Origin: Patescibacteria group bacterium
GTDB lineage: Bacteria; Patescibacteriota; Gracilibacteria; BD1-5; UBA2023
DNA length: 64,000 nucleotides
Assembly (NCBI GenBank): GCA_036171455.1
Contig: JAVHRB010000091.1
Span: 2,977-66,976 of the forward strand
Direction of reading: 5' to 3'
A program made the position numbers and the translations under genes. The notes beneath the pieces are model-generated. The model did no database searches, had not been told where the DNA came from, and saw only the letters and a list, made by a program, of their open reading frames with translations. This document shows positions 1-55,674 of this stretch, in pieces; position 1 is the first letter of the stretch; every line of letters starts with the position of its first letter.

Positions 1-400
1 CTCCGAAAATGCTTCAGCCTATTTCCATGACGGCCATTTCAGGCTCGTCGAAAATACGGAGAGACCTTTGGAGAATCGAGGAATCCCACAAGCCGTTCCA
101 CCTGTCGAAAAGCGCGCCTATTATAGCGAGAAGCGGCGGGAGACTGACGGAGTCCCCATTCCGTCATAACACGAATCAATCCAGCGGTATTCAAGCGACT
201 CAACACCGAGAATGCAGCCCCTTATAAAAAGCCTGGGCCTTGAATTCATTATCAAATTTGAGCGAACAGGTCGTATTAGCGAGGAATCATTCGAGATTCT
301 CCAAAACTTCCTTATTTTCCAAAAGTTCCTCGTATTTCGGAATGGAAGGATTGGATATCTTGAAATCCACACGGCTGGGATATTTCCATCATAGTGACAT
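1..400 (-). CDS. hypothetical protein (C-terminus beyond window edge)
   Basis: ATG at 400-398. Frame stays open to position 1 if the seven in-frame TGA are sense; no TAA/TAG. Same strand as hsdR and 91 nt downstream of it. No motif recognised. Confidence 0.4.
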
Positions 401-491: not shown

Positions 492-3491
492 TTACTTTCC
501 GGAGGCTTTCACCTGCCGATGTATGAACTCATACATCTTCCCGTTCACGAAATCCTTCAACTCGATGTTTTTGTCGATTTTTTGAAACAGGTCGAAATTG
601 CTCCGGAACATCGATACGAGCTCTTTCGTGAACAGTTCGTCGAATTTCACCCTCACTGCGTCCTCGCTCACGTTATTGTTCATGGCACCAACCAAGGCCT
701 CGTTTTTGAGAAGCCTGGCGCTCAGGGTATTGAGCATGATGCGGTCCTCTTCCGAGAACGTGGTCCCGAAGCGCTCGTTCACGTCCGAAAGGATTTTGGA
801 CAGCGATTCGGTGTCGTCCTCTTTTTCCCCGCGTCCGCCAGCTCCCATCGGGTCGAGCTTCCCGGTTTCGTTATCGAGAACGATTGACGTCTGCGAACGC
901 TTCGGGACTTTGATGCTCTCGAGGTTCACGAGGTCCAGGAGTTCGGTCGGAAGGGGGTTCGACGACATCGGCAACTTCTTTTTGTAAAACCTGAGGAACA
1001 TGTACATCGCTTCGAGGTCCGCGTCGGTGAAGTCGATGATTTGCGATACGAAGGCGTATTTCCGGACGTAATCGGAAATCTGGACCCGGCATTCGGCCTG
1101 TTCCTCGCTTTCGGTTTTTTCGTCTTCGTTGAGTTCTTTCCACCGCTTCATGAGGACGTCCAGGAACGAATTCAGTTCCGCCGGCGTTACCCCCCGGTGC
1201 CACATGTCCGCGAACTCGGCTATCTGCGGTTCTCCGAAAAGCTTGTGACCGAGGATGTCTCGCCGGAGGTCGTAGAGTATTCCCGGTTCGGTAGCTTCCG
1301 AAAGGACCGTGGTAGTGTAATACGGCTGGAACGCCTCCTTAATGTCCCCGGTTTCGTTCACGAAGTCCAGGACGAACGTCTCGCCCTTGTCCGGATGGGT
1401 CCGGTTGAGCCGGGAAAGCGTCTGTACCGCGTTCACACCGCCCAATTTTTTGTCCACCGCGGAAAATCCGAGGAGGGGTTGGTCAAATCAAGTCTGGTAC
1501 TTCTCTGCGACGATGAGAAATTTGCAATCGTCCTTCTTGAACTCTTCCTTGGTCTGGGATTCGGGTATGCCGTTCATGTTCGCTTCGGTGTATTCCATTC
1601 CACTGTCTTTCACCGTGCCAGAGAACGCCACGAGGGTCCTATGGGAGAGGCCCTGCTCCCGCAGGTATTTGTCGATGGCGATTTTGTACCGGACGGCATG
1701 GAGGCGGGATTTGGTAACCACCATGGCTTTCGCTTTGCCCCCGATTCCGCTTTTGACGTGCCTTTCGAAATAGTCGACGATGATTTGGGATTTCTTCCCG
1801 ATGGCGTGCTCACTCTTTTCCACGGCGTTGACCAGCACCCGGGTAGCGAGGCTCTTGGAATATTTCGGGTCGTTCTCCGCGGACTTGTGGAGGCTGAAGA
1901 ACATATCGTAGGTCGTATAGTTCTTGAGAACGTCAAGGATGAACCCCTCCTCGATGGCCTGCTTCATGGAATAGACCGAGAACGGCACGAAACTGCCGTC
2001 GGACCGCATTTGCCCGAAGAGTTCGAGGGTCTTCTGTTTCGGAGTGGCCGTGAATGCGAAATAGCTCACGTTGGGGTTTTTCCGGCTCCGGTTCTTCATC
2101 TGCTTCACGAGCCAGTCCTCCCCGTCCTCTTCGGGAAAGGCTGAGTCTGACCGGAAAGCGCGTTCGAGGACGGTCTCCTCGTCCTCCCCGCTTCCCGCCG
2201 ACAGCACGTCGTTGACCGCGCGACCGCTCTCGCCCGACTGGGAGGAATGGGCCTCATCGATAATTACGGCGAACTTCCGGCCCGGTATGGTTCCCATCTC
2301 GTCCGCGATGAACGGGAACTTCTGGAGGGTGGTAATTATGATTTTCTCGCCGTCCTGCAGGGCGGTCCTGAGTTCCGCGGAACCTTCGGTGATGGGCTTC
2401 ACCACGCCCCGGACCTGTTCGAACTGGGAAACCGTTTCCCGGAGCTGCTTGTCGAGCACCCGCCGGTCCGTAATGATGATAACGCTGTCGAACACCTTTC
2501 CGTTCGAGGCGTCGTGGAGGTCGGCGAGCCGGTGCGCCGTCCAAGCGATGGTGTTGGATTTTCCGGAGCCGGCGGAATGCTCTATGAGGTAGTTCCTTCC
2601 CGAGCCGTTTTCCTGCGCGTCGGCCACCAGCTTCCTCACCGCGTCGAGCTGGTGGTATCTGGGGAATACGAGCCGTTCCGTCTTTTCCTTCTTCCCTCCC
2701 TCGAGCGTTTTTTCCTCCTTCTGAAGGCATATGAAGCGTCCTATGAGCTCCAGAAGGGTGTCCGGCGTGAAAACGTCTTCCCACATGTAGGACGTCTTGT
2801 ATTTGCCCGCTATGGCGGAGTTACCAGCGGAGCCGTCGTTTCAGCGGTTGAACGGGAGGAAATAGGTTTTCTCCCCCTTGAGTTCGGTCGCCATGTACGC
2901 CTGTTCGGTGTCGATGGCGAAGTGGACGAGGCAGCGCTTGAAGGCGAGAAGCCGTTCCTTGGGGTCCCGGTCCGTTCGGTACTGCCGTATCCCGTGCTCG
3001 ACGGACTGCCCGGTTAGTTGGTTCTTGAGCTCCACCGTCGCGATGGGGAACCCGTTGAGGAACAGCACCATGTCGATGCTGTTCTCGTTCCTTCCGGAAT
3101 ATTTGAGCTGCCGGATAACGGAGAAAACGTTTCCGCGGTACAGTTCGAGATTCTCCGGGTTGAAATCCGTGTTCGGCTTGAAATGGGCGAACCGGAACAG
3201 GATGCCGTCCAGCGTGACGCCTTCCCTGAGGATTTCCAGGAGCCCGTACTTTTCGGTGACCCGGACGATTTCCGCGAGGAGTTTTTCCCTGGCCCGGTCG
3301 AGCCCGTGGAGCCCGATGAGCTTGTTCGACTGCTTCGGCTGGGTGGACGAAACGAAGCGCCAGAACATCTCCGGGTCCAGGCAGGTCTCCCGGTCGTAGT
3401 CCGAAGCGAGCCGCTTTAAGTAACCGGCTTGGGTCACGAGGAAATTTTCGATGAAGGCTTCGAATCCGATTTCTTTGGTATTGGTACTCAT
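492..3491 (-). CDS. hsdR: type I restriction enzyme R subunit, 999 aa
   Basis: ORF-track fragments 2841..3491, 1488..2786 and 492..1457 share one frame and are separated only by TGA (2841-2843, 1488-1490). Helicase motif I AGSGKS, motif II IIDEAHSSQ, KYQT-[TGA]-FDQPLL and VQTLSRLNR. TAA stop. Confidence 0.95.
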
Positions 3492-3500
3492 GGGAATTGG

Positions 3501-3674
3501 TTAACAGTAAAATGGAACGGGTTCTTGGGAGCAGATTTCGTAGGTGGCGATGAGCTCCGCGAGCGCAGCGACGATTTCCATGGCTTTTGGGTCGGCGGAG
3601 TGCTTCCGGAAGAATTTTCGGTCGGCACGCTGCCATTGGGCAAGCAGGGAGAGCGATTGGGGCGAGAGGTTCAT
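3501..3674 (-). CDS. small hypothetical protein, 57 aa, directly upstream of hsdR
   Basis: ATG 3674-3672 to TAA 3503-3501, below the 60-aa cut-off of the ORF track. Ends 9 nt before the hsdR start. Preceded by an AT-rich stretch at 3675-3849. Coding status unproven. Confidence 0.3.
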   Translation of the reverse strand: MNLSPQSLSLLAQWQRADRKFFRKHSADPKAMEIVAALAELIATYEICSQEPVPFYC

Positions 3675-3849
3675 AGTGGTGCGTTATTGGTTTGTAGGAT
3701 ATCGTTATTGCGGTATTGTAAACGAAATTTGATTTATAATACAGTTTTTATTATAATGATTCCAGCAGTTGGCAGAGGGTTTCCGTCAGGGAGCTCCGTC
3801 GCAAGACAAAGCCGATTGCTTTTTTGTGCCTTGGAGCGGGAACGAGCTG

Positions 3850-4605
3850 TTAGTGGGTGACATGCTTCGGCTCGATATCACAATAAAGGGTCTTGGCCGC
3901 AAACAGGGCATCCGTCCCTTCGAAGAGGCTTTTTTTGAAGAATCCGAGCGTATCCGCTTTTCCCATCCGTTTGGCGAGCACGTGGGAAGAATACACGTAC
4001 CCAATTACGTCGGAAAACTGCATCGAATAGGAATTGAAGCTTTCCGTGTAATATACGGAATCGACAAGGTGAACGATGTCTTTTTTCGCGTACCCGTAAG
4101 CGGTCCCGTTTCTCTTGTACGAATGGAAATCGTTGATAATCCCCTGCGCGCGGTCCTCGTTGTTATCCATGATTATCAAGCCCTTCTTCCCTTCGTTCTT
4201 GAGAAAGGTTTCCGCTTTTTCCACCAGGTACATGAACGCGACGTTGTGCGGGTGGATGGGATATTTATATTTTTGGGCATGTTTCAGCTTGTCGACGCCC
4301 TGCGAAATGAATCGCACGTTCTGTTCGGAAAAAACCTGGAGTATCCCTTTGAGGGCTTGTAAACGGACTTCCACCTTGAAATGCTTGAAATATCACTTTC
4401 CGGAAACCATATCCGTCGCATGGAATTCGAAATCGAAGTTTTGTGAATACGGCATGAACATGACTTCGATGGAGCGAAGCCGCTCTTCGATTTTCGGTAT
4501 TTCGTCCACGGGGATAATGAGACCGGATATGAAATGTACCGGCTGGTCGGCATCGTCCAATTTCGCTCCGGTGTTTCAGGACTCGTCTAGGTATATGAGG
4601 TACAT
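3850..4605 (-). CDS. DUF3800-family protein, 251 aa
   Basis: Fragment 3850..4374 extends in frame through TGA (4393-4395, 4576-4578) to ATG 4605-4603. N-terminus MYLIYLDESGNTG matches the DUF3800 Y-x-DESG signature. Confidence 0.8.
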
Positions 4606-4675
4606 GGCGTAAATTTAAGAATATGGGGTTTTATCTCAATCTGCAACGGGACTCGCAAATAAGGAAAGCGTATGC

Positions 4676-5953
4676 CTATTCAATCTTGGCAAAGTAATCC
4701 ATCATTTCCAGCGTTAGGTATTCAGGATTTTTCGTTTGGACCTCCCCAAGGAAAAATCGCATGCTTCAATCCGCTTGGCTGTCTCATTTGGTTTTTCTGA
4801 ATATCCTTTCCAAATCGTCGGCGTTGAGAACGTCATAGAGCACTACGAGCGTAATGAAGAAATCGTCGGAGTCGTTATAGCAATTAATCTCGAAATTATC
4901 TATCAGTTCGTTCACGAGCATCCTCTTGAGGAAAGCGTCCAAAGCTCAGAAAAATTCCTTATACCCAGGAATAGAGAGTATGTAATCCCTGTCGCGGAGT
5001 CATCTGCAGACAATCTTTCAATTTGCACCTTCTCAATACCGGATATATGGCAGTTTGGATTTCTTCGCCATGCAACGCTCAAGCCGGGTCTTCTGATATT
5101 CCAAGACGTCGTAAAGAAAATCGACTATGGTTTTGGTCGAATTGACCACCAGCTTCGCGTGATGCCTGCTCGGGGCGGTCTCGCGGGTATGGCTGTCGCT
5201 CATGGTATTCCGGACCGCGGCTATGCCGTTGACAATGGAAGTGATTCAGGAGGTGACCATTTTTAGGGCAGCGTCCGCCTTTGTGCCTTCCGACAGGTTC
5301 AACAAGGCCTTTATTTTTTTGTAATAATCCCCTAGGTCGCCGGGGGTCTCAATCTCCTTTCCCGTAATCTGCTTGTGCAAATCCTTGGCCAACACGTCTT
5401 CGAGCAGGGCTCGCGCGTTGGTAATGGCTCAGTCGTAATCTCACTCGGCAAGTTTCCTATCGCATTTTTCCAATTGCTCTTTGATGAAAGGGCGGGATAT
5501 TTTTCCGGAATTTTCGATTTCGATACGGTTTTCGTCGGTTTTTACCATCTTGAAACGCAGTTTCCTGCCCAAATTCTCCGGCATCATGGCAAAGCTGTCG
5601 TCTTTCAGGTAGTCGTTGACGAGTTCCAATAGGCCGTTTCGCTCCGTTTCGTTATCACGGACGAGGGGATGTAGCATCTCCGCGAGGAACTGGGCAAACG
5701 TTTCGTCGCTTCACTTCATCAAATCAAGCCGGGAATCGTCGAAAATCCAATGGTCAGGCCAATCGTTGTTATTGAACCTGTGCTGCCAGATATCCCCCTC
5801 CATGTCTTTGTAACGGCCATCGGTCGAAGGCAGGTCACCAAGGTTGAAAATGCGCTTCAGGAAAGAGGTCTCGTCAAGCCGTCAATGCCAGGCGATATTT
5901 TCGATGCGGAGCTCGTCGCAGATGTTCCTCCTCGTTTTTTCCGAAATCAGCAT
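4676..5953 (-). CDS. AbiJ-like protein with Abi_C (HEPN) domain, 425 aa
   Basis: ATG 5953-5951 (13 nt after the hsdS stop) to TAG 4678-4676. Includes fragment 5441..5677; eleven in-frame TGA. N-terminal AbiJ-NTD-like region (IAWH-G-RLDETSFLKRIF, DIWQH). Central helical domain with R-x6-H (AAVRNTMSDSH). Confidence 0.75.
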
Positions 5954-5966
5954 AAGCGTTTTATGG

Positions 5967-7187
5967 TTACGGTTTGATTTTCCCGCTCACCGCGTGCGAT
6001 ATGAGCGAAGTTTTGTATTCTTGGAGCAGTTCGATTGACTGTTCGATTTTAGATTTCATCGAATCGATGTAGGCGGTTTCCTTTTCGAGATAGTCGACGA
6101 TTTCCTTTTGTTCGGCAATCGGCGGTATGCCCATGGCGAGATTCCCGATAAATTCCCAATCAGCGCGAGGCATCTTGGTGCCAAGTGTCGAATTATTGAC
6201 CTGCGTGATGAAATCGGAAGATACGATTCTATAAAAAAGGTAATCCTGGGTTATCTCGCTGGAAGGACGCAGTACGAGGAACTCGCCGACGCACAATCCA
6301 CTGCATGCGGCTTTGTATGCTTTTGCGAGGTACGGGCGCAATTTTCCGAATAGAACATCCCCCTGCTCGAAAGAGTTCATATTGCTCTCGAAAGTCCTTT
6401 CCCCATCGATAGGAAGATATTTCCCTGTCCAGCTTTCGATATTTTCCATTGCCACGGAAAACAAGTCACCGGAAAATGTAGTTTTCTGGTTTGTATTCGG
6501 TGCGGCATATTTCAGCTTCTTCACTTCCCATTCTTTCGGAATCATGCCAATCCATTCAATCCCACTGTCTTTCATCTCTACATTCGGGTCTAACCCCTTG
6601 GTAATGGCGTTATTTATGAGTGCACTTCTGTGCTCCGAGAGAAGGTCGATTTGTTGCCTCTTTTTCGCAATTGACTCGTCCAGTAGAGCAGCTTTTTCGT
6701 CGAGATATGTAACAATCACAATTTGCTCTTCTAATTCTGGCGTCGGGAAAGAGATATTTGCTAGTATTCACTGGGTCATGCTCGGTATTGCCGACCCCGA
6801 CTGATGTTCACTGAAGTTAATTCCGAGACATAGGTAATAGAAAAATTTCGGATAAGTATTGCCGAATATCTTCGTGTAGAACATCGTGTCTACCGTCCAG
6901 AATGGTTCGGTAACGAAAAGCGGTTTGTCTATGGTCCCCTTCCTTCAAAGTAAAACCGAAGGTTTGTTGTAAACGAAAGCGTTTGCCCTCGCGAATTCGC
7001 CGCCCGAACCATAAACAGGATATTCGCCATCTTCGGCTTCGATATCCTTGTAATCGCTCCCATTGCACACCGAGGCCATGTATTTCAGTTTCTTAACTTC
7101 CCAACCATCGGGAATATTCCCAATCGCATTCGTGTTTGACGGCTTGTATTTCGGGTAACGGGGATGACATTTTTTAAACGTTATCAT
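5967..7187 (-). CDS. hsdS: type I R-M specificity subunit, 406 aa
   Basis: Fragments 6945..7316 and 5967..6719 are in one frame, joined across TGA 6945-6947 and 6768-6770. Start taken at ATG 7187-7185 (MITFKK). Two target-recognition halves, each followed by the conserved helix (PELEEQIVIVTYLDEK; IPPIAEQKEIVDYLEKE). Confidence 0.9.
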
Positions 7188-7312
7188 TGAATGTAAGAAA
7201 AAGTGCAGAAAACCAGAATCACATACGACAGCGTGAGGATTATCGGCCAGCCCCATGACGCGACCAGCTCGCCGCAGGCCTTTATCCATGCGGCTTTCGA
7301 TTGGAAAAAGGT

Positions 7313-8218
7313 TCACGAGCGTATGTCCATGGCGAGACGGATGAGCCGCCTCATGTTCTTGTGTTCCTTTTCCGTTGCCGGCTTGTCCTTTTTCCCCGAT
7401 ATTATTTTGAACGATTCGAGCAGGTGGGTAAGGTATTCGTCGTCGATACGCTCGGGGTTTTGAATCGGTTCGGCAATCGATGCCAGGAAATCCTTGAGGA
7501 AAGCCCGTTTCTGTTGCTGGTAGGCGTTCCTAGCGAACACCCAGGCGAACACGAGTACGACGTACAGGAAAAACGACGCTACGCCGAAATAAAAGCCCGA
7601 ATGGGGAATGCTCGCTATGAAACCGGGAATATCCTTATTGGGAGCCGCAACGGTAACGATGAGGGTTATTGAAACGCAGAGCAATACCACGGAATTGAAC
7701 GTGACGTCGTAGTTACGGTTGGTATACGTGTCCATTTCGTCGGAAAGCTCCCGCACGTACGGCCCGTAGAGCTTTTCCAGGGAGAATCCCGGTATGAAAG
7801 CGCTCCATTCGGCTGCGGTACGGAGTATTTCCACGATTTGCGACCGTCGCTTCGGGGAATCCAACAGGAATTCGCAAAACTCCACGCTCAGGAGCTTCGT
7901 GGCAATAAGTCAGGCATCTTTGACTGCTGACAGGAATTCCAGCTGGGAAACGTCCTTTTTCTTTAGCTTCGAAACGATGTCGGCAAGTTTTTCCCCTTGA
8001 CCCGAATATTTTTCGGTCTTGGTCTCCCTCGTGAAATCAAGAAGGATTTCAATCCCGTTCCTGATTGGGGAAATATCTACATTTTTGATTTTCGGTCATT
8101 CTTGCGACCTTGCCTGCGATACCGCTTGCTTCCTGAAAAGTCGGAACAGGTAAACCGCAACCCTCGATTCGTCGAGCTCGTTTCGTACTACCGGTCGGAA
8201 ATTTGATTGGTCTGCCAT
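7313..8218 (-). CDS. hypothetical 2-TM protein, 301 aa
   Basis: Fragment 7313..7885 extends through TGA 7910-7912 and 8096-8098 to ATG 8218-8216 (12 nt after the DUF262 gene stop). Two hydrophobic helices (FNSVVLLCVSITLIVTVAA; GFYFGVASFFLYVVLVFAWVFA). No domain recognised. Confidence 0.65.
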
Positions 8219-8230
8219 GGTGCCGTTATG

Positions 8231-10111
8231 TTATTCGACGTTGAAAATGGAGTCGTTCCAAATCCTTTCGCAAATCACCCGGACCAGTTCCGCTCTGGCG
8301 CGTATGGCGACCTTCCCATACGAACCGTAAGCCGTAAAGGCTAAATCCTCGGTATCGATAAGCTGCAGGAAAGCAGGATGCTTCTCATAACACTGGGAAT
8401 TGAGCGACCAAGCGAGGAGGTTCTGAGAGAGGTAGTGGCTAACTTTCGTCTCGTACGGGGCATCGCTGAAGCTCTGGTTATACCCCCGAGGGAGCAGCAG
8501 GAGGTCGCCCACGTTGTTCCTCCACTCCTGAAAGTCATGCTCGTCTTCGTATTCCGTCGCGTACCGCTCGTATTTGTCGGCGGTTATGTGCTCAATTTCA
8601 TACGGCTTTTTTATAGACAGTGACAAATACTGTTCCACGCTGCTCGGAATACCGGTTTTCTCTTCGATGTAATGGGTAATCCGGGCCAGGAGGAATTTCA
8701 TGGTATTGTAGTTCCTCCTTCCGTCCGAGAGCTTATATTGGATGATTCCGGTGAAATCCTCTCACATCTCGGCGATAAATTCCCGACACGCATCGGAAAG
8801 CTCCTCCAACGAGCAGTCCCGGACCCGTTTGGTGAGATTGAACATGGTATAGCTAATGGCGCTGCTTCAAAGGGAGCGGTTGTTCGTAAGGCGGAGCATG
8901 ATGAACATTTCCAGGAATTCGGAGATGAGCTTCAGCTTCTTATCGACGGTATCTTCATCATCCCCGTACTTTACCGCGGAAAGCATGATGACGTCCTGAT
9001 ACGGGAACGTATGGTAGTCGTTGTAGAACACGGACGGGTATTTTGTGTCGAGTACCGATTTCGCCCTTTGGATTTTCAGGTAGAGTCCCGAATAGAATCG
9101 GAACTGCTCGTCGATGAAGCGGAAATAGTCGTCGCTTCTCGCGAATCAGATATCGCTTTCCCCATTCTCTCTTACCCACTTGTGAAAAGCGGTCCCTATT
9201 CGTTCGTAGTCCTGGTTCATCGAACCTTGTTGCCGTTGGCGCAAGGTTTTCGCGTATTTAGCCCTGAGCCACTTCTTAAAAAATTCCTCGTCTTCCCTTT
9301 TCTCGATGGAAATGAGCTTTACTATTCGTTCCTTCCATAGGTCGTTCGCGGCTGCCCTTTTCTGTTCATCCCGTATGTTCGCCAACAGGTACCCCTTGAG
9401 CATGTCGGTCGCCGTCAGGCTTAGTCCACGGTCGTTCATAGTTTCGAATATGGTGTACGCGTCGTCGTCCGAATGGGTGGTAATCTCCACCATGTCGACG
9501 TTGCCGGTGAGCCAATCAACGAAAAACGGCAATATTTCTCACTTTTCTCAAATCAGGCTGTCCGGGAAGTTCTCGGCTATGTCATGGTACCGGTCGAGGA
9601 TGTTCGTTATCGATTGCGGCGCGTCGTCCGGCAAAACGACTTCCTCTTTTCCGGAAAACAGGCTTTCGATTACCGATTGCCGCTCCGGCGCGTCGATATT
9701 GAAAGATTTTTCGCCGTAGGCCTCCGAATATATCAGGGATTCTAGCGGGGTTATCGCGATGTCTCTTTTCGTGGCCAAATTCCTCAGGTAAATCAACAGG
9801 AGGGTTATCGAGGTAAGGCGTTGCTGGCCGTCTATGATGAATTTCTTGCCGTCTTTCACGCACACGATGAAAGAGCCGAGAAAATAGTGGGGGTAACTCT
9901 TGACGTGCGGGCGTCCGCGTTCGATGTCGACGACGTTCTCGAATTTTCCGGACAGGTCGCTCAGAAGGGCTTCTATGTCCACGGCACGCCACTTGTATTC
10001 CCGCTGGTAGAAGTCGATTCCGAACTTCTCGCCGGAGAGGATTTTCTTAATGGACAATGCACTGCCATCGATTGGCAGTACGCCGCCGTCCGTTCTGTTC
10101 GTTTCTCCCAT
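8231..10111 (-). CDS. DUF262 + DUF1524 (GmrSD-like) nuclease, 626 aa
   Basis: Fragments 9548..10111, 9146..9532 and 8231..8701 are in one frame, and the 8702-9145 gap is open apart from TGA. DUF262 motif IIDGQQRLTS. C-terminal His-Me/HNH-like region YEIEHITADK ... NVGDLLLLPRGYNQS. Confidence 0.9.
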
Positions 10112-10128
10112 ATGTGTGTTTGGTAAAA

Positions 10129-12261
10129 TTACAACCGCTTCATCAGTTCGAGGAGTTCGTTCTCCACCGTTTCGATATCCGTCTCTATCGCTTCCAGGCT
10201 CCGCGGCGGTTCGTATTGGTAGAAATACCGGGTAAGCGGGAACTCATAGCCGACCTTCCCAACCTTCCCGTCTTTCGCGTCGCGCTTCATCTCGTCTATC
10301 CAAGCGTCCGGCACGAACGGTTTAACTTCCCGCTCGAAGTACGCGTTCACGTCTTCGTGATACGGGACGTTCTCGGTATCGCGGAGTTCGGAATCGGGTT
10401 CCGGGTTTCATTTCCCGTCGACGCATATGTCCGCCGATTCGTCCCGTTTTCACAGGTACGCCAAGAGTCGGTTTTTCATCGGTTTTCCATAAATGGTTCC
10501 AAGCATGCTCAGCGTAAGCGCATCGAACGTTTTTTCGAATTCGCCACGGTTCAAAAACACCTTTCATTCCAATTTTCATGCAATCCGGGTCAACGCCTCG
10601 TTCATTGCTATCGCAGCATGTCGCTCCATTACAAATTTCGTAGACATCGATTCAAGAACCGTTCACTTGCATTCTATTTCCTGATTCATCGCTAACCGAA
10701 GGTCGTTTTCCAATTCACTCGAAGCGCGGATACCGAGTCCGCTGAACAACAGAGCCTTGCCTTCTTCGCTGCTGAAATCGTATTTCAGCCTCAGCGGACG
10801 CTCTATAGTGATTTGCCGGTAGGCGAAGTCGGTCGTCTTGAAAATCTTGGAACAGTCGCTATCGCGGAAACCGCGGTACAGCGACAAAATGGTTTCGATG
10901 TCATTCCCGCCAATCTCGTGCCGCTTGTTTCCGAGGCTCTTCCGCATCTTCACGAAGGACTTACGGGCGTCGATGAGCTGGACGGTATTTTTCCGCTCCT
11001 CGGTTTTCCGGTTCGAGAGAATCCAGATATAGGTCGAAATCCCCGTATTGTAGAACAGCTGGTCTGGCAGGGCGATGATGGCTTCCAAATAATCGTTCTC
11101 GCATACCCACCGGCGTATCTCGCTCTCGCCGTCGCCCGCGTCCCCGGTGAACAGGGGAGAGCCGTTGAAGACGATTCCGATACGCGCTCCCCCCTCCTCC
11201 CGGTCGCGCATCTTGGAAACCATGTGCTGGAGGAACAGGAGCTGTCCGTCGGAACTCCGCGGCAACCCAGCTCAGAAACGCCCGGCATAGCCCCGCTCCG
11301 CTTCCGCTTCCACGGCTTCCTTGTCCTTCTTCCAATCCACTCAATAAGGGGGATTGGCAAGGATATAATCGAACTTGAGGTCAAGGAATTGGTCGGTCGA
11401 AAGCGTGCTGGCCACCGTGTGGTCTTTGTCTCCGCCCTTGATACGGTCTGCGTCTTCTCCCTTCATCAGCATGTCGGCCTTACAGATGGCATAGGTGACG
11501 GGGTTGAGTTCCTGTCCGTAGACGAATATGCTGGCCTTAGGGTTGATGTCCGAAAGTATGTGTTCCTTTCCTGCGGACAGCATACCGCCAGTTCACGCAC
11601 AACAGTCGTACATGGTCTTTATAACGTGTTCCCGCTTGAGCTCCTTGGCATCGGGCTCGAAAAGGACTTCCACTATGAGTTGGATTACTTCCCTCGGGGT
11701 GTAATGTTCCCCGGCGGTCTCGTTGGACTGCTCGGAAAACCGGCGGATGAGTTCCTCGAACACGTACCCCATCTCGTGGTTGGACACGGCGTCGGGATGG
11801 AGGTTTACCTTGTTGAACTCCTTGATTATGAGATAAAGCATGTTTCCGCCTTCCATCCGGGCGAGCTGTTTCTCGAATTCGAACTTCTCGAAAATCTGTT
11901 TCACGTTGTCGGAAAAACCGCCGATGAGGTTCCTGAGGTTCTTCGCCATGTCGCGCTGGTCGTCCAGGAGCTTGTGGAAATCGTAGGGCGAAACGTTGTA
12001 GAACCCGGTTCCGGCGATATCCTTGAGTATCATGCCCATGTCGGAAATCTGGCCGTCGTACTGGTTGAACGTGGAAAGTACTTCCTCCTTGGTGTCGGAA
12101 AGGACGCTGTCGAGGCGTTTCAGGAGCGTGAGCGGTAGGATTACGTCCTGGTATTCGTGCTGTTTCCAGCTTCAGCGGAGGAGTTCGGCGATGTTCCAAA
12201 TAAGCCCTGCTTTGGAAGCGGAGCCGGTATTGGTCGATGGGGTATTTTCTTTTGGTGCCAT
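10129..12261 (-). CDS. hsdM: type I R-M N6-adenine DNA methyltransferase subunit, 710 aa
   Basis: Fragments 11593..12039, 11341..11583, 10663..11265 and 10129..10350 are all in one frame. ATG 12261-12259. N-terminal LIWNIAELLR-[TGA]-SWKQHEYQDVILPLTLLKRLD, motif I DCCA-[TGA]-TGGML, motif IV NPPY-[TGA], C-terminal YFEREVKPFVPDAWID. Confidence 0.95.
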
Positions 12262-12365
12262 ACGGAGCGGGTTTGTTATCTAAACGAGCGAAGTATACGC
12301 GAAGGCAGGGGGAAATCAACATGGGCAGGCTTATTGTTCCGTCAGGGGTATTTCCAGATGCCAGA

Positions 12366-13507: not shown

Positions 13508-14956
13508 TTATTCCAAGAGAACTCAGGCACGATGGAGGAATTCCCAGAATTTACTCCGGCCATGGGTTACGAGGTAATCGTTCAGGTCGCTGACGGTGCC
13601 GCCCCATTCATCATCGTTCCCGCTGCCGAACCGAATGCGTTCGATGGGAACTTCCCGCGAGAGCTTCTCGAACAGGCTCTCTCCTGCCGTATCGGAATGC
13701 GGTACCATGGCGAACGTACAGCCGAGCCGGTTGAACTCCCCGAAGTCCTCGCAGGAGGAGCTCGCGGAAGCGACGCCGATAACGTACGGGGTGAACTGCC
13801 GGACGGAAAGGTAGTCCGTGAATCATTCGACGACCAATACTTTGCGCTGCACGGCACCGACTGCCCCTATTCCTGACGGGAAGTCGTGGAAGTACCCGTG
13901 CTGCGTGCCTCAGACAACAATCCTGTACCGATAGCCCTTGTCGACGCTGCCCGCCGCGCGGGTTTGGATACCCATGACTTCGTTCGACGACGAGTTCTTG
14001 ATGGCGAGTGCCAATCGGTCTTCCCCTGCGAACCGGAGTATGCCCCCGAGCGCATCTGGCGAGAGTTGCCGTTCCGCCGCGTACTCCGTCTGTGAGCTGG
14101 TCGGCATCGCCGGTTCGAGCGCATCCCATTTCTTCGCCTGCTCGGGATTTTTGGTTGGTCGTGCTTCTGCAAGCAGCGGTAGTGCTTGCACGGTAACCGC
14201 ATGCGCTGACGGGCCGGACGACCGGAAGTCATCGATGCGGAACCCGAATTCCCGCGAGGCGACCCCGATTATTTCAGCTCAGGTGGAAGCCTTGTACAAT
14301 CTCTTTATGAGGGCGACCGGCTGGCCGCAGAACCTTCGCTTCTCGGTGAAATCCCGGACGTAGTTGTCACGGACGTTTACAATGTGACCACGGGTCTTCT
14401 TACCGTTCTCATAGATGCCCAACACCCCTTTGTTCCCCGTTCTGAACGTCTGATATCCAAAGCGATTGAGTATGTCCATCACGGGAATCCTGTTGATTTC
14501 TTCAAACGCTTCCCTGTAATCTATAGTATAACTATAGTTCTTACTACTATTTAATTCCTTACTTGTATTGCTCACTTTTCCAGATTCGAGTTCCTCCCAT
14601 GTTTGGTCCGAACCGACGGTTTCCCGTTTATGGCAAACGGAATCCATCTCCTCCATTATTTCGGTTTTCATTCCCCCCTCTTTTTGCGCTTCCCGGCGGA
14701 GCGTGACGAGGGTCCCATCTTTCGACGTGGAGTAGTCGAGCCATCATTTTTCCTTCATTTTTCCGAAGAATCCCCGTATCCATTTTTCGGAACGTTTCCA
14801 GCGCAATTCAAAGAATCTCACGCTCCTGAGAAGCTGAGACTCCGAAAGGCGGATTTTCTTTCCTCGCTTTGTTATAACATAGGTCTTCCACGTGGCGAGG
14901 CAGTGGAGGTCAACCATTGCCTCGAGTTGACTGAACCTTACGGAATGTTCAAGCAT
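13508..14956 (-). CDS. TOPRIM-domain primase-like protein (mobile-element type), 482 aa
   Basis: Fragments 14744..14956, 14279..14671, 13910..14191 and 13523..13708 are in one frame. TOPRIM Glu motif KVLVVE-[TGA]-FTDYLS, acidic motif PHSDTAGE, SDLNDYL near the C-terminus. Alternative in-frame starts at 15025 and 14671. Confidence 0.8.
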
Positions 14957-15351
14957 GCTGAAACCTTTGCTGATGGTTACGAATCATCATGTAACTTGAT
15001 TGTCTTCTGGTAGAATCTGAAGCATTGCGAAAATTTATTGGTACGAGGGCATATTATTCGCTATAAATACAGCCGTCAAAAAATTGGAAGCCAGACAAAT
15101 CGGTATTTTTTTTGAAAAAAGTGAAAAGTATTACCGGAAAGTAAAAAACCCATATGAAAAGGGTATGTTTTCGTAGTCCGAAAAAATCGTTGTACAATTC
15201 GGATATTTATTTTCTATTTTTCTCCCAGAGACGAAGCCTGAAATCACAATCCAAACAGGAATGTTGAAAACTTGGAACTATTTTATTCGCTTGTCATTAT
15301 ACCGAACCGAAAATCGTTTTTGGATAGACGAGCATGCAAGGTGAAAAAACA

Positions 15352-16258: not shown

Positions 16259-19200
16259 ATGGCCAACCCGAACGAATCGACCGCGACGCAGGACATTCCC
16301 GACATGCCCGAACGGGCCAAGGCCATGGAATTGTCGCGTGCCGAAAGCGAACGGAAGGCCCGCGAGCGCGACCTCGCCTCGATGGATGCCATGCTCGACG
16401 CGAACCCGAGCAAGACGACGTTGGAACTCGTCCTCCGCCGCATCGTGGAAAAAATGCCCGAAGAGCGCGCGACCCTCGAACTGATGTCGGTCGGCGCCGA
16501 TATCCAGGTCCTGGAATTCCTCGCGAAATCGTCTCCGTCCGACACCGAGGCTTCCGCGCTCCTCGAACGCCGGAAGAAACGCCGCGACGAGCTTTCCAGA
16601 GCGGCCGCCGGAGCTCCCGGAACGGAATCCCGGGCACCGACGGCCGAACGGCACGCCGCAGTAACGGCTGGCGGCAATGCCCCAGCGAAAGAGAAGCCCG
16701 CGGCTCACGACAAACCGAACGGAACCGCCGAACGGCCGGAATACCCTCCGGGAACAAAAGTGCTCTCGGTCGAGGAAATGCGGAAACTGGAACAAACCGG
16801 AAAAGCCCTTTTGGAAAGAAAACCCGGCGATATCCGGGAATCGTCCCCGGAGCGCGAACTCCTCGAAACGAAAATCGGGCAGGCGAATCTCCTCCTTTCG
16901 GCCTGAGAAGCCTACCGGGACTATCTCGCGAGCATCGAGGCGAACATCCGTTTCAAGAACGTTTCCGACAAGCCGAAACGGTACCAGGACCAGGTCCGCG
17001 CCATCGACTCGGCGCTTTCCGAGCTCGGCTCCGTGGCCTCCTTGCCGGAATCCGCGCGCGCGGAAGCCCTGAAAAGGCTCGACGTGAAAGCGCTCGCCGA
17101 CCGGGTCTTCGTACCCGAAACGAAGCTCTCCACGCTTTGAAGCGGCCTCATGAACCAGCCGATGCTCGAGGTCGACGCCGAGACCGGAGAGAAGCGGTTC
17201 CTGCCGAATATCGCGTCCACGCTCGCCGAAACCGAGGGTAGGTACGCGAGGATGCGGGCCATCGTCGCCGAAGGGAACGATTTCGGTCCGGCGTCGGCTT
17301 ACGCGAAGAAATACGAAATCCTCGGGCTCCTGCGTTCGAACGACTCCCGGGACGACGATGGTCTCCGCCTGAACTCCGGCGAAGCCATAGCGAAACAGGC
17401 GGAGGGCGACGTCCTCGGGAATGCGAAGCTCCGGGAGAACGACTCAATCCGCCGGGCGTTCGACATTGCCATCTCCATGGAAAAAAACCCGAAAGCGGCC
17501 GCTGCCGTCCGGTCCCTCGCGTTCGGGAATTCCATGCCGAACGCCCAGTCTTTCGGGCTCCTCTTCCAATCCTACGGGGTGGATTTCCCGAAAGGCGTAC
17601 TTTCGGCGCTGGGAAAGAAAGCCGCGGAATACCGGAGCGCCCGGAAGGACATGGTGGAAAGCCGGAAGGACGAGCTTTCCAAACTGGTAGACCGCCCCGG
17701 GACTTTCCCGGAAGGCTTCGTCCGCGAGTTCAAAAAAGACCCCGTAAAAACGGTAACGGAAGCCTTCGAGAACGATGCCGCGCGCAAAATCCTCTCCCTC
17801 TCCAAGCATGAAATCATCGCACAAGCGCTCAAGTCCGACGCGGCAAGGGTCCGCGAGCTCCGTAAGGACGACCCGGCGCTGGCGCTCTATACGAATATCG
17901 AGGGAATAACCCATACGCCCGACAGTACGGTAAACGGACGGGTGGACACTTCGCAATTCTATCTGGAGCAGCTTCTCATGTTCTACGTTTCGTGAACCAT
18001 TGGCAACGCCATTGCCCGCGCACCGATTTTGGAAAAGCCCGTCGAATATTTCGCGAAGGGCGCGAAGCTCAAAACCGAAGCCCTCGTCTGAGCGGGGCGA
18101 ACGGCGAACCTCGCCGGGAAATCCGCAGAACTCGTGGGAACCACCGTTACGGAGTGAGTGCCATTCGCGCTGTTCTACCAAACCCTCAACGGGCTCGCGA
18201 ACCAGGGATACGTCCACGCCGACACGCTCGGCACCGCCATCGAGGTATTTTCGGCCTCGCACAACGTCAAGGACGATTCCCGCATCATCGCTTTCCTCGC
18301 GGTCATCAAGCTGATGCTCCCGGTCGTCTCGAAGCTGCCGAATCCCCAGGCGGCCGTCGAAGGGATGCTCGCGAGGGAATTCCCGGAACTCGCCCTGAAA
18401 ATCGCGGGGAACCCCGCCGCTTCGAGGGGGTTGGAACTGTCCCGGACCGCGGTCCAAACCGGACAGAACGTCATTCTGGATACCGCCGCCCTCGTCTGAG
18501 CGGACACCGTCATCCGCGGGCTGTACGGCGAAGACCTCCCGAAGGATTCGGGCGAGATACCGAACTACCTCACGCAGGAATTCAAGGTCGTCATCGGATA
18601 CGTTATCTGACTCAGGACCCTTACGGACAAGCTTTCGCACGGTCCGAAGCCCGCAAGCATGTCCGATATCGCGAAACGGCAAATCGAGGTGAATTATCAG
18701 GAGAACGGGGATATCGCCATCCGCATGGCCGAGGGGCGGGTATTCGTCATCAGGCGGGAGCTCAGGAACCTCGGTCAGGCCCACGACCGCTTGAAAAACG
18801 GCGGAACGGACAAGCTCGACAGCCGCGCCATCGCCGCCGGAAAGCGAGAGAAGAAAACGGAGCTCAGGGGCGCTATGTCGGACGTGGAATTCGTTCGCCG
18901 GGAACTTGCCACCCATGAGTCCGGCATCGCCGCGTCCCAGCCGAACGGAACGAGGCCGGGCGAAGGGGTATATGCCGACGCGGCAGCCGGGGTCGGCGCG
19001 CCGAAGGGCTACGTGCAGCGGGCGCTTCCGGACGAGAACTTCACCCGAACGGGTACGAACCACACGGCGAACAACCTGAAAAGCCTTGAAATCGACCCGA
19101 AATCGATTAAGCTCAGCGATACCCTGTCCGGATTTTCGCCTTCCCTCGACGCGGAGGCAATCGGGGGGACGTTCCGGTCCCTCCGCAAGGGCATGGGGAA

Positions 19201-19555
19201 CGTCGAAAGCCCGGAGCTTCTCAGAAAACAAGCCGAAACGGCGATACGGCAGGAACTCCAAACGAAGTACGACGCCATGATGAAGGAATACGATAAGCTC
19301 ACCCCCGAAGCGCAACGGGCCATGGAAGCGTGGAGGGAGTCGATGGAACGGCAGGCGAAGGAGCTCGCGGAAGATTTTCAAAACGCGCTCGGAACGAAGC
19401 TCGAGCGGGGGAAGATGGACGGGAAATGGGGGAATCCCGAGTATATGGACAGGATAATGGGGACATTCGCAGAGAAAGCTCCAGAATCCCTAAAGAGCGC
19501 ATTATTGCAGAAAATCCCAGGCGTGAGACGAAAGGAGAATCTTGTTTCAGAATAG
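16259..19555 (+). CDS. large hypothetical protein, 1098 aa
   Basis: Fragments 16247..16906, 17150..17995, 18158..18499 and 18659..19555 are in one frame. The gaps are open apart from seven TGA. ATG 16259, TAG 19553-19555. Ala/Glu/Arg-rich, no domain recognised. Confidence 0.8.
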
Positions 19556-41812: not shown

Positions 41813-41932
41813 GTGCCTTTACTTCCTCCCTCCATGGCTTTAAATGGCGATTAAGCCCGATAAGCGGCGATACTCCGCTACAAGCGTTTAGTATGGTTCG
41901 AGCGATAAATTGTTCGGGGAGCCATAGCATAA

Positions 41933-50701: not shown

Positions 50702-50710
50702 TCTTTTCTA

Positions 50711-52543: not shown

Positions 52544-52549
52544 AAAATT

Positions 52550-55304: not shown

Positions 55305-55674
55305 CTTACCGTTAATCTTACAAGTATAGTCGAATGAATAAATCACTTTTAGTTTCTTACTCGTCGTCATCTTCTTCGTCCTCACATCTTTCCACGACCA
55401 CTTTGTAGGCGTTTTCTACGAATTCATAGGCTTCGGAGAAGTGTTCCCGTATGTATTCCACGAGCGGCAAAAACGTTTCAATATGTTTAATCTTTCTTTG
55501 ATTGGGGGAGCCATTCAACAATTCAAGCAGAAATCTCAGACTTGCTCTGGGATTTTTGTTTTGTCATTATCAAAGTAAACAAGCCTGTATTTCACTTACC
55601 TAGGAATTTATGGTGCAGTTGTTGTATTTTTTGCAACAACTGCTTTTTATACAATTACCTTATAAAATAAAGTC

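What the first reader, a model, noticed from the sequence alone, without database searches (positions are those of the whole stretch)
492..12261. Type I R-M locus with four or five unrelated genes interleaved between hsdM, hsdS and hsdR
All genes are co-directional and tightly spaced. The order is hsdM, 17 nt gap, DUF262/DUF1524 nuclease, 12 nt, 2-TM protein, 125 nt, hsdS, 13 nt, AbiJ/Abi_C HEPN protein, 70 nt, DUF3800 protein, 175 nt AT-rich gap, 57-aa ORF, 9 nt, hsdR. Canonical type I operons are hsdM-hsdS with hsdR adjacent. Here a GmrSD-like nuclease, a membrane protein, a HEPN protein and a DUF3800 protein sit inside the same transcription-unit-like array. That suggests a composite, possibly co-regulated, multi-layer defence locus rather than independent neighbours.
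Basis: partly seen in the sequence, partly recalled or inferred. Interest (0 to 1): 0.75.

Follow-up and report, generated by a model that had tools for sequence, protein, structure and literature searches.

The report
Defence genes nested in restriction operon
A candidate-phylum bacterium that reads TGA as glycine carries a type I restriction-modification operon with five extra, mostly anti-phage genes nested between its three core genes; this kind of nesting is already known, and the locus is a heavily loaded new example with two uncharacterised passenger families.

Summary
With genetic code 25 (TGA = Gly), the minus strand of 492-12261 holds eight intact, co-directional genes: hsdM, GmrSD-type nuclease, a 3-TM protein (TM2), hsdS, AbiJ-type HEPN protein, DUF3800 protein, a 57-aa ORF and hsdR. 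One detail is wrong. hsdS starts at 7187 and overlaps the membrane-protein gene by 7 nt, so there is no 125-nt gap.

In 61 related loci from candidate-phyla bacteria the order hsdM-hsdS-hsdR is constant. The hsdS-hsdR junction carries cargo in 58 of 61 loci, and the hsdM-hsdS junction in 25 of 66. Cargo is co-directional (116 of 120 ORFs of at least 80 aa) but extremely diverse (75 clusters), including Fic, Shedu, OLD/PARIS-like ATPases, NYN and reverse transcriptases.

Near-identical strains (hsdR 99.9%) carry DUF5677 plus an unknown gene in place of AbiJ plus DUF3800. The hsdM-GmrSD-TM2-hsdS half recurs in two more distant relatives (GmrSD 75-77%).

So this is a two-slot docking operon: slot 1 is semi-stable and slot 2 is a swap site. 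The phenomenon is published (PrrC, rlo genes, TgvAB, "guilt-by-embedding").

What is new here is the candidate-phylum, code-25 setting, the largest cargo load seen among the relatives, and two uncharacterised families that travel with the operon, TM2 and orf57.

The parts
10129..12261 (-). hsdM, type I m6A methyltransferase subunit (710 aa, 9 in-frame TGA = Gly)
   Evidence: Pfam HsdM_N and N6_Mtase. PADLOC MTase_I PDLC03029, E 1.6e-262. Motifs DCCAGTGG at aa 219 and NPPY at aa 303. 45-86% identical to HsdM in 80 mostly candidate-phyla loci.
8231..10111 (-). Slot-1 cargo 1: GmrSD-family (DUF262 + DUF1524) type IV, modification-dependent nuclease (626 aa)
   Evidence: Pfam GmrSD_N E 2.7e-31 and GmrSD_C E 1.3e-11. 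Best PADLOC family HEC-06. DGQQR at aa 94, His-Me EIEH at aa 505. Orthologues at 75-77% in the same position in L181 and L089.
7181..8218 (-). Slot-1 cargo 2: TM2, a 345-aa protein with three hydrophobic segments (about aa 170-195, 206-232, 318-345) and no known family
   Evidence: No significant Pfam, PADLOC or PHROG hit. Only 11 representatives among 1.84 billion proteins. Lies immediately upstream of hsdS with a 7-8 nt overlap in the window, L089, L174 and L181, and beside type II-like R-M genes in L087 and L088.
5967..7187 (-). hsdS, specificity subunit with two target-recognition domains; start corrected to 7187
   Evidence: Pfam Methylase_S, two stretches. PADLOC Specificity_I E 1e-91. 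The N-terminus MITFKKCHPRYP is conserved in L089, L174 and L181. GC is 45% against 53-56% for hsdM and hsdR.
4676..5953 (-). Slot-2 cargo 1: AbiJ-like HEPN protein (AbiJ_NTD3 + Abi_C) with a lineage-specific C-terminal extension of about 135 aa (425 aa, 11 TGA)
   Evidence: Pfam AbiJ_NTD3 E 6e-44 and Abi_C E 1e-14. PADLOC AbiJ E 4e-26. HEPN motif RNTMSDSH at aa 248. 67% orthologue after hsdS in L089. Replaced in L003 and L005. The C-terminal region has no Pfam family and plasmid homologues do not cover it.
3850..4605 (-). Slot-2 cargo 2: DUF3800 protein (251 aa), predicted RNase H-like nuclease
   Evidence: Pfam DUF3800 E 2e-11. DESG at aa 7 and QFSD at aa 196. No PADLOC hit. Two further DUF3800 genes occur among the cargo of related loci. 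The family is a retron type VII effector with an RNase H2-like fold (PMC7736814).
3675..3849 (-). 175-nt spacer holding the right-hand cargo boundary. Homology with the alternative-cargo strains begins at 3729; several contigs start at 3692.
   Evidence: blastn break points. GC 43%. Not significantly structured, z = -0.88. No Rfam hit, including the DUF3800 motifs, in 3300-6100. It contains TATAAT-like boxes, but promoter calls are at chance level.
3501..3674 (-). orf57, a conserved small protein (57 aa) that travels with this type I R-M clade
   Evidence: Homologues at 30-61% identity in 7 related loci, with conserved W14, D18, F22 and ALAE. 54 clusters of 56-77 aa, none with a Pfam domain. 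Retained unchanged in the alternative-cargo strains. Its position in the operon varies.
492..3491 (-). hsdR, restriction (nuclease plus SF2 translocase) subunit (999 aa)
   Evidence: Pfam HSDR_N, SWI2_SNF2, ResIII and T1R_D3-like. PADLOC REase_I. D-x13-ELK at aa 140, GSGKS at aa 308, DEAH at aa 412. Nearest solved structure is EcoR124I HsdR, E 1e-14.
12292..12319 (-). Candidate promoter (TTGATT-16-TATACT) 31 nt upstream of the hsdM start; low confidence
   Evidence: Consensus scan. The total number of promoter-like sites is no greater than in shuffled sequence, so this is only a lead. hsdM is preceded by a 439-nt intergenic region.

Best explanation
The locus is a functional type I restriction-modification operon of a family common in candidate-phyla (Patescibacteria) bacteria. 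Its two internal junctions act as docking slots for other defence genes.

Core system (inferred from family knowledge): HsdM2-HsdS methylates a bipartite target, and with HsdR it cuts unmethylated incoming DNA.

Slot 1 (hsdM-hsdS) holds two genes. One is a GmrSD-type modification-dependent nuclease, which would attack phage DNA whose modified bases escape the type I enzyme. The other is a rare membrane protein, TM2, whose stop overlaps the hsdS start.

Slot 2 (hsdS-hsdR) holds an AbiJ-type HEPN RNase (an abortive-infection effector), a DUF3800 RNase H-like protein, and the small clade-specific orf57 just before hsdR.

The passengers are co-oriented and tightly spaced, so they are probably transcribed with the hsd genes. 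They are autonomous modules rather than subunits.

Slot 2 is exchanged between strains by recombination anchored in the conserved hsdS 3' end and the orf57/hsdR 5' region. Slot 1 is more stable within the sub-clade. The benefit is layered protection, co-inherited on a mobile element.

Shown here: gene identities, intact motifs, the overlaps, cargo turnover, the recurrence of slot 1, and the recombination scar. Inferred only: co-transcription, the activities of each protein, and any synergy between them.
For: Identities and intact catalytic motifs. Code 25.

Family-wide pattern across 80 loci found with HsdM:
- hsdM>hsdS>hsdR is always co-directional.
- The hsdS-hsdR gap exceeds 500 nt in 58 of 61 loci (median 1373 nt). 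The hsdM-hsdS gap exceeds 250 nt in 25 of 66.
- 116 of 120 cargo ORFs of at least 80 aa are co-directional.
- There are 75 cargo clusters, and the same family can occupy either slot.
- Cargo is dominated by defence families: Fic/SoFic, OLD, AriA, PtuA- and GajA-like ATPases, Ymh-HEPN, NYN, RT-protease, Shedu, PemK, PIN, RhuM and PDC candidates.

Strain-level swap: L003 and L005 keep orf57 and hsdR at 99.9% identity but carry a DUF5677 gene plus a 209-aa gene in place of AbiJ and DUF3800. A 30-nt copy of the window-type hsdS 3' end is left behind the DUF5677 gene. Contigs break at the cargo boundary.

Slot-1 recurrence:
- L181 has hsdM 69%, GmrSD 75%, TM2 46%, then hsdS.
- L089 has GmrSD 77%, TM2 58%, hsdS, AbiJ 67%.
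- L174 keeps TM2-hsdS but has an MBL-fold gene instead of GmrSD.

The closest GmrSD relatives from metagenomes sit inside or beside type I R-M at varying positions.

Composition: cargo and hsdS are 45-51% GC against 53-56% for hsdM, hsdR and orf57.

Autonomy of the cargo families: AbiJ and DUF3800 homologues on plasmids stand alone. HEC-06 GmrSD works alone experimentally (10.1101/2024.01.29.577857).

Precedents: TgvAB (PMC11411939); PrrC and HEPN genes in R-M operons (PMC3710099).
Against: - There are no expression data. Promoter-like and terminator-like sites are at chance frequency, so co-transcription is only inferred from spacing.
- The 70-nt and 175-nt gaps could hold internal promoters. 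A -35/-10-like site lies at 4639-4612, upstream of DUF3800.
- The conserved TM2/hsdS overlap and the persistence of GmrSD-TM2 across relatives whose GmrSD is 75-77% identical argue that at least slot 1 may be more than a passive passenger.
- The functions of TM2, orf57, DUF3800 and the AbiJ C-terminal extension are unknown.
- The structure prediction for the TM2 family failed (pLDDT 46.5).
- Comparative loci come from metagenome-assembled genomes and short-read contigs, so some gaps or gene calls may be imperfect.
Confidence: 0.75

Rival explanations
1. The eight genes form one obligate, co-evolved multi-component system. The embedded proteins would physically or functionally depend on the type I enzyme, for example a PrrC-style arrangement in which the R-M complex keeps the AbiJ RNase or the TM2 membrane effector silent until a phage disables restriction.
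For: - Tight spacing and the TM2/hsdS overlap, conserved in four lineages.
- The GmrSD-TM2-hsdS(-AbiJ) order is kept in L181 and L089.
- TM2 lies next to R-M genes in 6 of 6 contexts.
- The PrrC precedent, in which the R-M system masks the nuclease (PMC3710099).
- TgvAB protects better together with its type I cluster (PMC11411939).
Against: - Slot-2 genes are replaced in strains with 99.9% identical hsdR.
- None of 80 related loci shares the inserts.
- L174 pairs TM2 with a different gene, and L175 has an empty slot 1 with an 81% identical HsdM.
- AbiJ-like and DUF3800 genes occur alone elsewhere.
- This AbiJ carries its own N-terminal sensor-type domain. PMC3710099 notes that it is the forms lacking such a domain that are most tied to R-M operons.
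Confidence: 0.15
2. The inserts are selfish or neutral hitchhikers that merely land in a permissive gap. Loss of hsdR expression is harmless, so the gap tolerates insertion. There would be no shared regulation and no benefit from the co-location beyond joint transfer on the mobile element.
For: - Extreme cargo diversity and turnover.
- The hsdS-hsdR gap is occupied far more often than the hsdM-hsdS gap.
- Cargo GC differs from core GC.
- Toxin-antitoxin-like cargo occurs in relatives: PemK, Doc, and a SocA/Panacea antitoxin-domain gene.
- The locus lies next to the recombinase end of an integrative element.
Against: - 116 of 120 cargo ORFs are co-directional and the gaps are very short, which neutral insertion would not produce.
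- The cargo is overwhelmingly made of defence families.
- The start/stop overlap with hsdS is conserved.
- Slot 1 has been retained over substantial divergence.
Confidence: 0.1
3. The interleaving is not real: either a decayed R-M locus full of stop codons in a standard-code genome, or a chimeric assembly.
For: Table 11 fragments every gene. GC varies along the window.
Against: - TGA sites align with conserved Gly in up to 75 homologues.
- Coding density is 85% with TGA read as sense.
- All catalytic motifs are intact.
- An independent contig is 100% identical over 12.8 kb.
- The same gene order occurs in samples from other studies.
Confidence: 0.01

Closest known systems
[quoted passage not shown]
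   Same: A DUF262/DUF1524 modification-dependent nuclease is nested inside a type I R-M operon. The proposed logic is the same: type I handles unmodified DNA and type IV handles hypermodified DNA.
   Different: TgvAB is an obligate two-protein pair. Here the nuclease is a single fused GmrSD whose closest PADLOC family is HEC-06. Its conserved neighbour is a membrane protein, not a second DUF262 protein. The host is a code-25 candidate-phylum bacterium.
Embedded defence genes / 'guilt-by-embedding' (Payne et al., bioRxiv 10.1101/2024.01.29.577857); rlo genes of Campylobacter jejuni type I loci (as cited in PMC11411939)
   Same: Variable defence genes are nested co-directionally between the genes of a multi-gene system (type I R-M, BREX, DISARM, Hma). 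GmrSD-like, HEPN, NYN and ABC-ATPase cargo recur. Several cargo ORFs of the related loci match that study's HEC and PDC models.
   Different: That survey used RefSeq genomes. Here the pattern is shown for one R-M clade of candidate-phyla bacteria with near-saturated occupancy (58 of 61). TM2, orf57 and this DUF3800 protein have no PADLOC model.
PrrC/EcoprrI and RloC (anticodon nucleases embedded in type Ic R-M; PMC3710099)
   Same: A HEPN RNase sits inside an hsd operon as a presumed second line of defence.
   Different: PrrC and RloC have an ABC-ATPase N-terminal domain and are held inactive by the R-M complex. The protein here has AbiJ_NTD3 plus Abi_C plus an unknown C-terminal domain. No interaction with the R-M complex has been shown, and the gene is swapped out in sister strains.
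BrxU within BREX (as cited in PMC11411939 and 10.1101/2024.01.29.577857)
   Same: A GmrSD-family enzyme embedded in a methylation-based system gives complementary coverage.
   Different: The host system is BREX, not type I R-M. BrxU (HEC-05) is a different GmrSD branch.
Retron type VII DUF3800 effectors (PMC7736814)
   Same: The same Pfam family, with the N-terminal DE motif and a predicted RNase H2-like fold, in a defence context.
   Different: There is no reverse transcriptase or msr/msd here, and no Rfam DUF3800-associated RNA motif. The gene stands as type I R-M cargo.

Membership tests
Type I restriction-modification system | HsdM with an N6-adenine methyltransferase domain and motifs I and IV | tested here: met
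   Pfam HsdM_N and N6_Mtase. DCCAGTGG and NPPY motifs. PADLOC MTase_I E 1.6e-262.
Type I restriction-modification system | HsdS with two target-recognition domains | tested here: met
   Two Methylase_S stretches. PADLOC Specificity_I over aa 44-438.
Type I restriction-modification system | HsdR with a PD-(D/E)xK nuclease, SF2 ATPase motifs and a C-terminal domain | tested here: met
   HSDR_N, SWI2_SNF2, ResIII and T1R_D3-like. D-x13-ELK, GSGKS and DEAH. Match to EcoR124I HsdR.
Type I restriction-modification system | Methylation of a bipartite motif and ATP-dependent restriction | not testable with these tools
   Needs methylome data (PacBio or Nanopore) or biochemistry.
GmrSD / type IV modification-dependent restriction enzymes | N-terminal DUF262 with QR, DGQQR and FxxxN motifs, plus C-terminal DUF1524 His-Me finger, in one polypeptide | tested here: met
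   GmrSD_N and GmrSD_C. FYQREY at aa 34, DGQQR at 94, FETMN at 222, EIEH at 505, WRNN at 530. PADLOC HEC-06, Orf5 and SspE models. PDB 9jfl DUF262 protein.
GmrSD / type IV modification-dependent restriction enzymes | Cleavage dependent on modified bases | not testable with these tools
   Requires phage or DNA assays.
AbiJ (HEPN abortive-infection family) | C-terminal Abi_C HEPN domain with an Rx4-6H motif, and an AbiJ N-terminal domain | tested here: met
   AbiJ_NTD3 E 6e-44 and Abi_C E 1e-14. RNTMSDSH at aa 248. PADLOC AbiJ E 4e-26. An extra C-terminal region of about 135 aa is not part of the family.
DUF3800 (PF12686) | N-terminal DE motif and C-terminal QxxD motif (PMC7736814) | tested here: met
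   Pfam E 2e-11, above the cut-off. DESG at aa 7 and QFSD at aa 196.
Embedded defence cargo in a multi-gene immune system (guilt-by-embedding class) | Genes nested between the core genes of a system, variable between homologous loci, and enriched in defence families | tested here: met
   and the strain swap.
PrrC/RloC-type R-M-guarded anticodon nuclease | ABC-ATPase N-terminal domain fused to the HEPN domain | tested here: not met
   The AbiJ-like protein has no ATPase domain. AAA_13 proteins occur in relatives (L174, L088) but not in this locus.
Phase-variable type I R-M (hsdS shufflon / inverton) | Multiple hsdS copies or half-genes flanked by inverted repeats, with an adjacent invertase | tested here: not met
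   There is a single hsdS and no inverted repeats beyond short, chance-like pairs. The nearby serine recombinase is a large integrase-type enzyme at the element end.

The most novel reading that the evidence does not exclude
TM2 and orf57 are not cargo but lineage-specific accessory components of this type I R-M clade in Gracilibacteria-type bacteria.

TM2 is a rare three-pass membrane protein, translationally coupled to hsdS in four lineages and found beside R-M genes in 6 of 6 contexts. It would either tether the restriction complex at the membrane where foreign DNA enters, or act as a membrane-disrupting suicide effector guarded by the R-M complex.

orf57 is a roughly 57-60 aa protein found so far only inside these operons. 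It would regulate or assemble HsdR.

If so, this would be a previously undescribed five-component type I R-M variant.
Probability: 0.2. Interest if true: 0.65.

Novelty: new member of a known kind. Interest (0 to 1): 0.42.

Why it matters
It extends the "embedded defence gene" principle to candidate-phyla bacteria. These have tiny genomes and an episymbiotic lifestyle, and their immune repertoires are poorly charted because code 25 breaks standard gene calling.

One R-M clade there behaves as an almost always occupied cassette site: the hsdS-hsdR slot is filled in 58 of 61 loci. That makes it a cheap and specific hunting ground for new defence genes.

Two families with no annotation stand out as candidates: TM2, with 11 representatives in 1.84 billion proteins, and orf57. 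DUF3800 recurs as cargo, which adds to the case that it is an immune effector.

The strain-level swap with a recombination scar gives a concrete mechanism for cargo exchange.

None of this overturns current understanding.

Tried and rejected
- Table 11 ORF calling fragments the genes. It was replaced by code 25.
- tRNA and Rfam scans of the window found nothing. An E-value-level Rfam scan of 3300-6100 for DUF3800-associated RNA motifs also found nothing.
- Folding of the 175-nt spacer gave z = -0.88, so it is not structured.
- Promoter and terminator scans were indistinguishable from shuffled sequence. No operon boundaries could be called.
- A repeat search for direct repeats flanking the cargo, or inverted repeats indicating an hsdS shufflon, gave only short chance-like pairs.
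The homologue P0001 gave pLDDT 46.5, so no fold search was run.
- PHROG search of the neighbouring element genes and of TM2, DUF3800 and orf57 gave no informative hit, so the element cannot be called a prophage.
- Pfam search of orf57, the TM2 N-terminal domain and the AbiJ C-terminal extension found nothing significant.
- An exact look-up of an hsdM fragment found only the source contig.
- A cluster look-up for an organism name returned no name.
- Pseudogene and chimera readings were rejected.
- Membership in the PrrC-like family was rejected because there is no ATPase domain.

Full report
OBSERVATION

With the standard bacterial code the region is a mosaic of short ORFs on both strands. Allowing TGA as a sense codon raises the coding density of the window from 47% to 85%. 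It also gives eight long co-directional ORFs on the minus strand between 492 and 12261.

The recoding is to glycine. Of the 11 in-frame TGA codons in hsdM and hsdR, seven fall on columns that are Gly in at least 88% of 60-75 homologues from standard-code genomes, and none aligns with Trp. The host is therefore a code-25 (Gracilibacteria/Absconditabacteria-type) member of the Patescibacteria.

- hsdM, 10129-12261
- GmrSD (DUF262/DUF1524), 8231-10111
- a membrane protein with no family (TM2), 7181-8218
- hsdS
- AbiJ_NTD3 + Abi_C, 4676-5953
- DUF3800, 3850-4605
- a 57-aa ORF, 3501-3674
- hsdR, 492-3491

Catalytic motifs are intact in all enzymes.

hsdS begins at 7187 and overlaps the TM2 stop (CAA-TGA-TAA / ATG-ATA-A). 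This overlap is conserved in three other lineages, so the reported 125-nt gap does not exist. TM2 has three hydrophobic segments rather than two. An independent public contig is 100% identical over 12.8 kb, so the arrangement is not an assembly artefact.

COMPARATIVE TEST OF THE INTERPRETATION

1. Species-level relatives. A scan of 185,579 species-representative genomes with HsdM returned 80 loci, almost all from Patescibacteria, at 45-86% identity.
   - In every complete locus the order is hsdM>hsdS>hsdR on one strand. None contains a detectable homologue of GmrSD, TM2, AbiJ or this DUF3800 between the hsd genes.
   - The junctions are rarely empty. The hsdS-hsdR gap exceeds 500 nt in 58 of 61 loci (median 1373 nt). 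The hsdM-hsdS gap exceeds 250 nt in 25 of 66. Both are filled in 21 loci.
   - The 132 inserted ORFs fall into 75 clusters. 116 of the 120 ORFs of at least 80 aa are co-directional with the hsd genes. The same cargo family can occupy either slot.
   - Their families are typical defence or toxin modules: Fic/SoFic, OLD-, AriA-, PtuA- and GajA-like ATPases, Ymh and DUF4145 HEPN, NYN, RT-protease, Shedu, DUF3800 (twice), PemK, PIN, RhuM, and several PDC and HEC candidates.
   - The window's insert load (2.9 + 2.5 kb) is the largest in this set. The next largest is 3.3 kb.

2. Strain-level relatives. Contigs from sister samples carry orf57-hsdR at 99.9% identity but have different cargo. In place of AbiJ and DUF3800 they hold a DUF5677 gene and a 209-aa gene with a marginal, non-significant PADLOC hit to PDC-S04 (E = 0.016).
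   - Homology breaks at window 3729, inside the 175-nt spacer, and at 5998, 30 nt before the hsdS stop.
   - A 30-nt copy of the window-type hsdS 3' end is left behind the DUF5677 gene. This is a recombination scar.
   - Several contigs terminate exactly at this boundary, as expected for population heterogeneity.

3. Sub-clade relatives, found through TM2 and orf57.
   - L181 has hsdM (69%), GmrSD (75%), TM2 (46%) and hsdS. These are followed by WYL, Shedu, orf57 (61%), a RhuM-like gene and Doc, then hsdR (71%).
   - L089 has GmrSD (77%), TM2 (58%), hsdS, AbiJ (67%).
   - L174 has hsdM (85%), an MBL-fold gene, TM2 and hsdS. These are followed by three unknown genes, orf57 and hsdR.
   - L175 has an empty slot 1 and a 281-aa gene of unknown function plus a SocA/Panacea antitoxin-domain gene, possibly a toxin-antitoxin pair, in slot 2.

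Slot 1 content is therefore semi-stable in this sub-clade, while slot 2 is hypervariable.

GC content agrees with this picture. hsdM, hsdR and orf57 are 53-56% GC. The cargo and hsdS are 45-51%. The alternative cargo is 41%.

WHAT THE PARTS MOST LIKELY DO

From established family knowledge, HsdM2S methylates and HsdR2M2S restricts unmodified DNA.

The GmrSD protein has the full DUF262 NTPase and DUF1524 His-Me nuclease motif set. It matches PADLOC's HEC-06 best, an experimentally validated stand-alone GmrSD-like defence (10.1101/2024.01.29.577857). It would cover phages whose hypermodified bases evade type I restriction. This is the logic demonstrated for TgvAB inside the V. cholerae type I cluster (PMC11411939).

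The closest metagenomic GmrSD relatives are repeatedly inside or next to type I loci, at different positions. [quoted passage not shown]

The AbiJ-like protein has an intact HEPN Rx6H motif and an N-terminal AbiJ_NTD3, a putative sensor domain (PMC3710099). Its C-terminal 135 aa have no Pfam family, and none of the plasmid homologues covers that region; a full-length orthologue is present in L089.

DUF3800 carries the DE and QxxD motifs of a family modelled as RNase H2-like and used as a retron type VII effector (PMC7736814). None of the RNA motifs known to accompany DUF3800 genes is present.

AbiJ-like and DUF3800 homologues on plasmids stand alone, which supports autonomy.

TM2 is extremely rare, with 11 representatives in 1.84 billion proteins. 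It sits beside R-M genes in all six contexts seen: four type I and two type II-like.

orf57 defines a family of 54 clusters of 56-77 aa with no annotation. In all 12 contexts examined it lies inside operons of this type I R-M clade. Its position varies: after hsdM, in slot 1, or before hsdR.

The functions of TM2 and orf57 are unknown. Structure prediction for the TM2 family failed.

REGULATION

Spacing, shared orientation and the TM2/hsdS overlap argue for co-transcription. However, promoter and terminator scans are at chance level, the spacer is not structured, and no expression data exist. Co-regulation remains an inference.

CONTEXT

The locus lies next to the recombinase end of an integrative element.
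- Just beyond window position 1 lie a 410-aa gene and a large serine recombinase.
- The 3' end of that recombinase gene overlaps a core sequence (TTGAATGGCTCCCC). The core abuts the 3' half of a tRNA gene.
- The same core recurs at window 55505-55519.
- One sister contig joins the recombinase end directly to window 55.5 kb. This is either a circular junction or an alternative tandem order.
- A second large serine recombinase, with a partial core, sits at 41.9 kb, where GC drops from about 50% to about 38%.
The defence operon is therefore mobile-element cargo.

COMPARISON WITH WHAT IS KNOWN, AND VERDICT

Nesting of defence genes inside type I R-M operons is established:
- PrrC in EcoprrI and many HEPN families "embedded in R-M operons" (PMC3710099)
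- RloF and the rlo genes of C. jejuni, and TgvAB (PMC11411939)
- the systematic "guilt-by-embedding" survey, which lists type I R-M among the systems that frequently contain embedded genes (10.1101/2024.01.29.577857)

The locus passes the membership tests for type I R-M, GmrSD, AbiJ, DUF3800 and the embedded-cargo class. It fails those for PrrC/RloC (no ATPase domain) and for phase-variable hsdS (single hsdS, no inverted repeats).

The finding is a correct observation of a known kind of architecture. It is a new member of that kind, notable for four things:
- the candidate-phylum, code-25 host;
- the heaviest cargo load among its relatives;
- direct evidence of cassette swapping with a recombination scar;
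- two unannotated families that travel with the operon, TM2 and orf57.

"Co-regulated" is plausible but untested. A fixed functional unit is contradicted for slot 2 and left open for slot 1.

Noticed in passing
Left of window position 1 (L001 12787-15737; L170 3693-6576) and window 55505-55519, 41888-43390: The R-M locus lies at the recombinase end of an integrative element. A large serine recombinase gene ends in the core TTGAATGGCTCCCC, which abuts a tRNA 3' half. The same core is exact at window 55505-55519. Contig L170 joins the recombinase end to window 55537, which is either a circular form or an alternative tandem order. A second large serine recombinase with the partial core GGGGAGCCAT sits at 41.9 kb, where GC falls from about 50% to about 38%. 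This suggests two tandem elements of about 45 kb and about 14 kb.
   Followed up: partly
window 48713-55273 (+): Three large co-directional genes of 662, 610 and 907 aa. Precomputed Pfam on the identical genes in L170 gives AAA_15/SMC_N for the 610-aa protein and ResIII/HI_1054 for the 907-aa protein. This may be a second defence-like system on the lower-GC element.
   Followed up: no
window 3501-3674 and L008-L011, L018, L033, L045, L173-L175, L181: orf57 belongs to an unannotated family of 56-77 aa proteins (54 clusters). In all 12 contexts examined it lies inside this clade's type I R-M operons, and its position within the operon varies.
   Followed up: partly
L003 270-347 and 985-1062; L005 equivalent: In the alternative-cargo strains the DUF5677 gene is flanked by two hsdS-3'-end-like segments. 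The downstream segment matches the window's hsdS tail at 29 of 30 nt and is fused in frame to the DUF5677 ORF.
   Followed up: yes
window 10129-12261 (HsdM aa 491-606): HsdM carries a segment of about 116 aa that is absent from the 80-85% identical HsdM of L174 and L175 but present in L181. It is a variable insertion in the C-terminal region.
   Followed up: no
window 40509-41090 (-): A 193-aa protein matching phage GP30.3 (above the Pfam cut-off) and, below cut-off, the NADAR ADP-ribose-processing domain. It lies near the inner element junction and may be a counter-defence or antitoxin-type gene.
   Followed up: no
window 1-400 (-), continuing in L001 12387-13619: A 410-aa gene with no Pfam family follows hsdR after 91 nt on the same strand, between hsdR and the recombinase. 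It could be further cargo.
   Followed up: partly
window 13508-15025 (-) and 16259-19555 (+): Large ORFs upstream of hsdM (505 aa and 1098 aa) have no Pfam hit, and the 505-aa one also has no PHROG hit. Several greedy ORF calls in the 28-38 kb stretch look like wrong-frame, arginine-rich translations. Gene content of the high-GC element is essentially unannotatable with these libraries.
   Followed up: partly
L087 6526-11059; L088 10001-15572: TM2 homologues (45% identity) also occur next to type II-like R-M genes. In L087 they follow an m5C methyltransferase and an NgoFVII-type endonuclease. In L088 they precede an AAA_13 ATPase, an m5C methyltransferase and a GIY-YIG protein. These contigs also use TGA as a sense codon.
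   Followed up: partly
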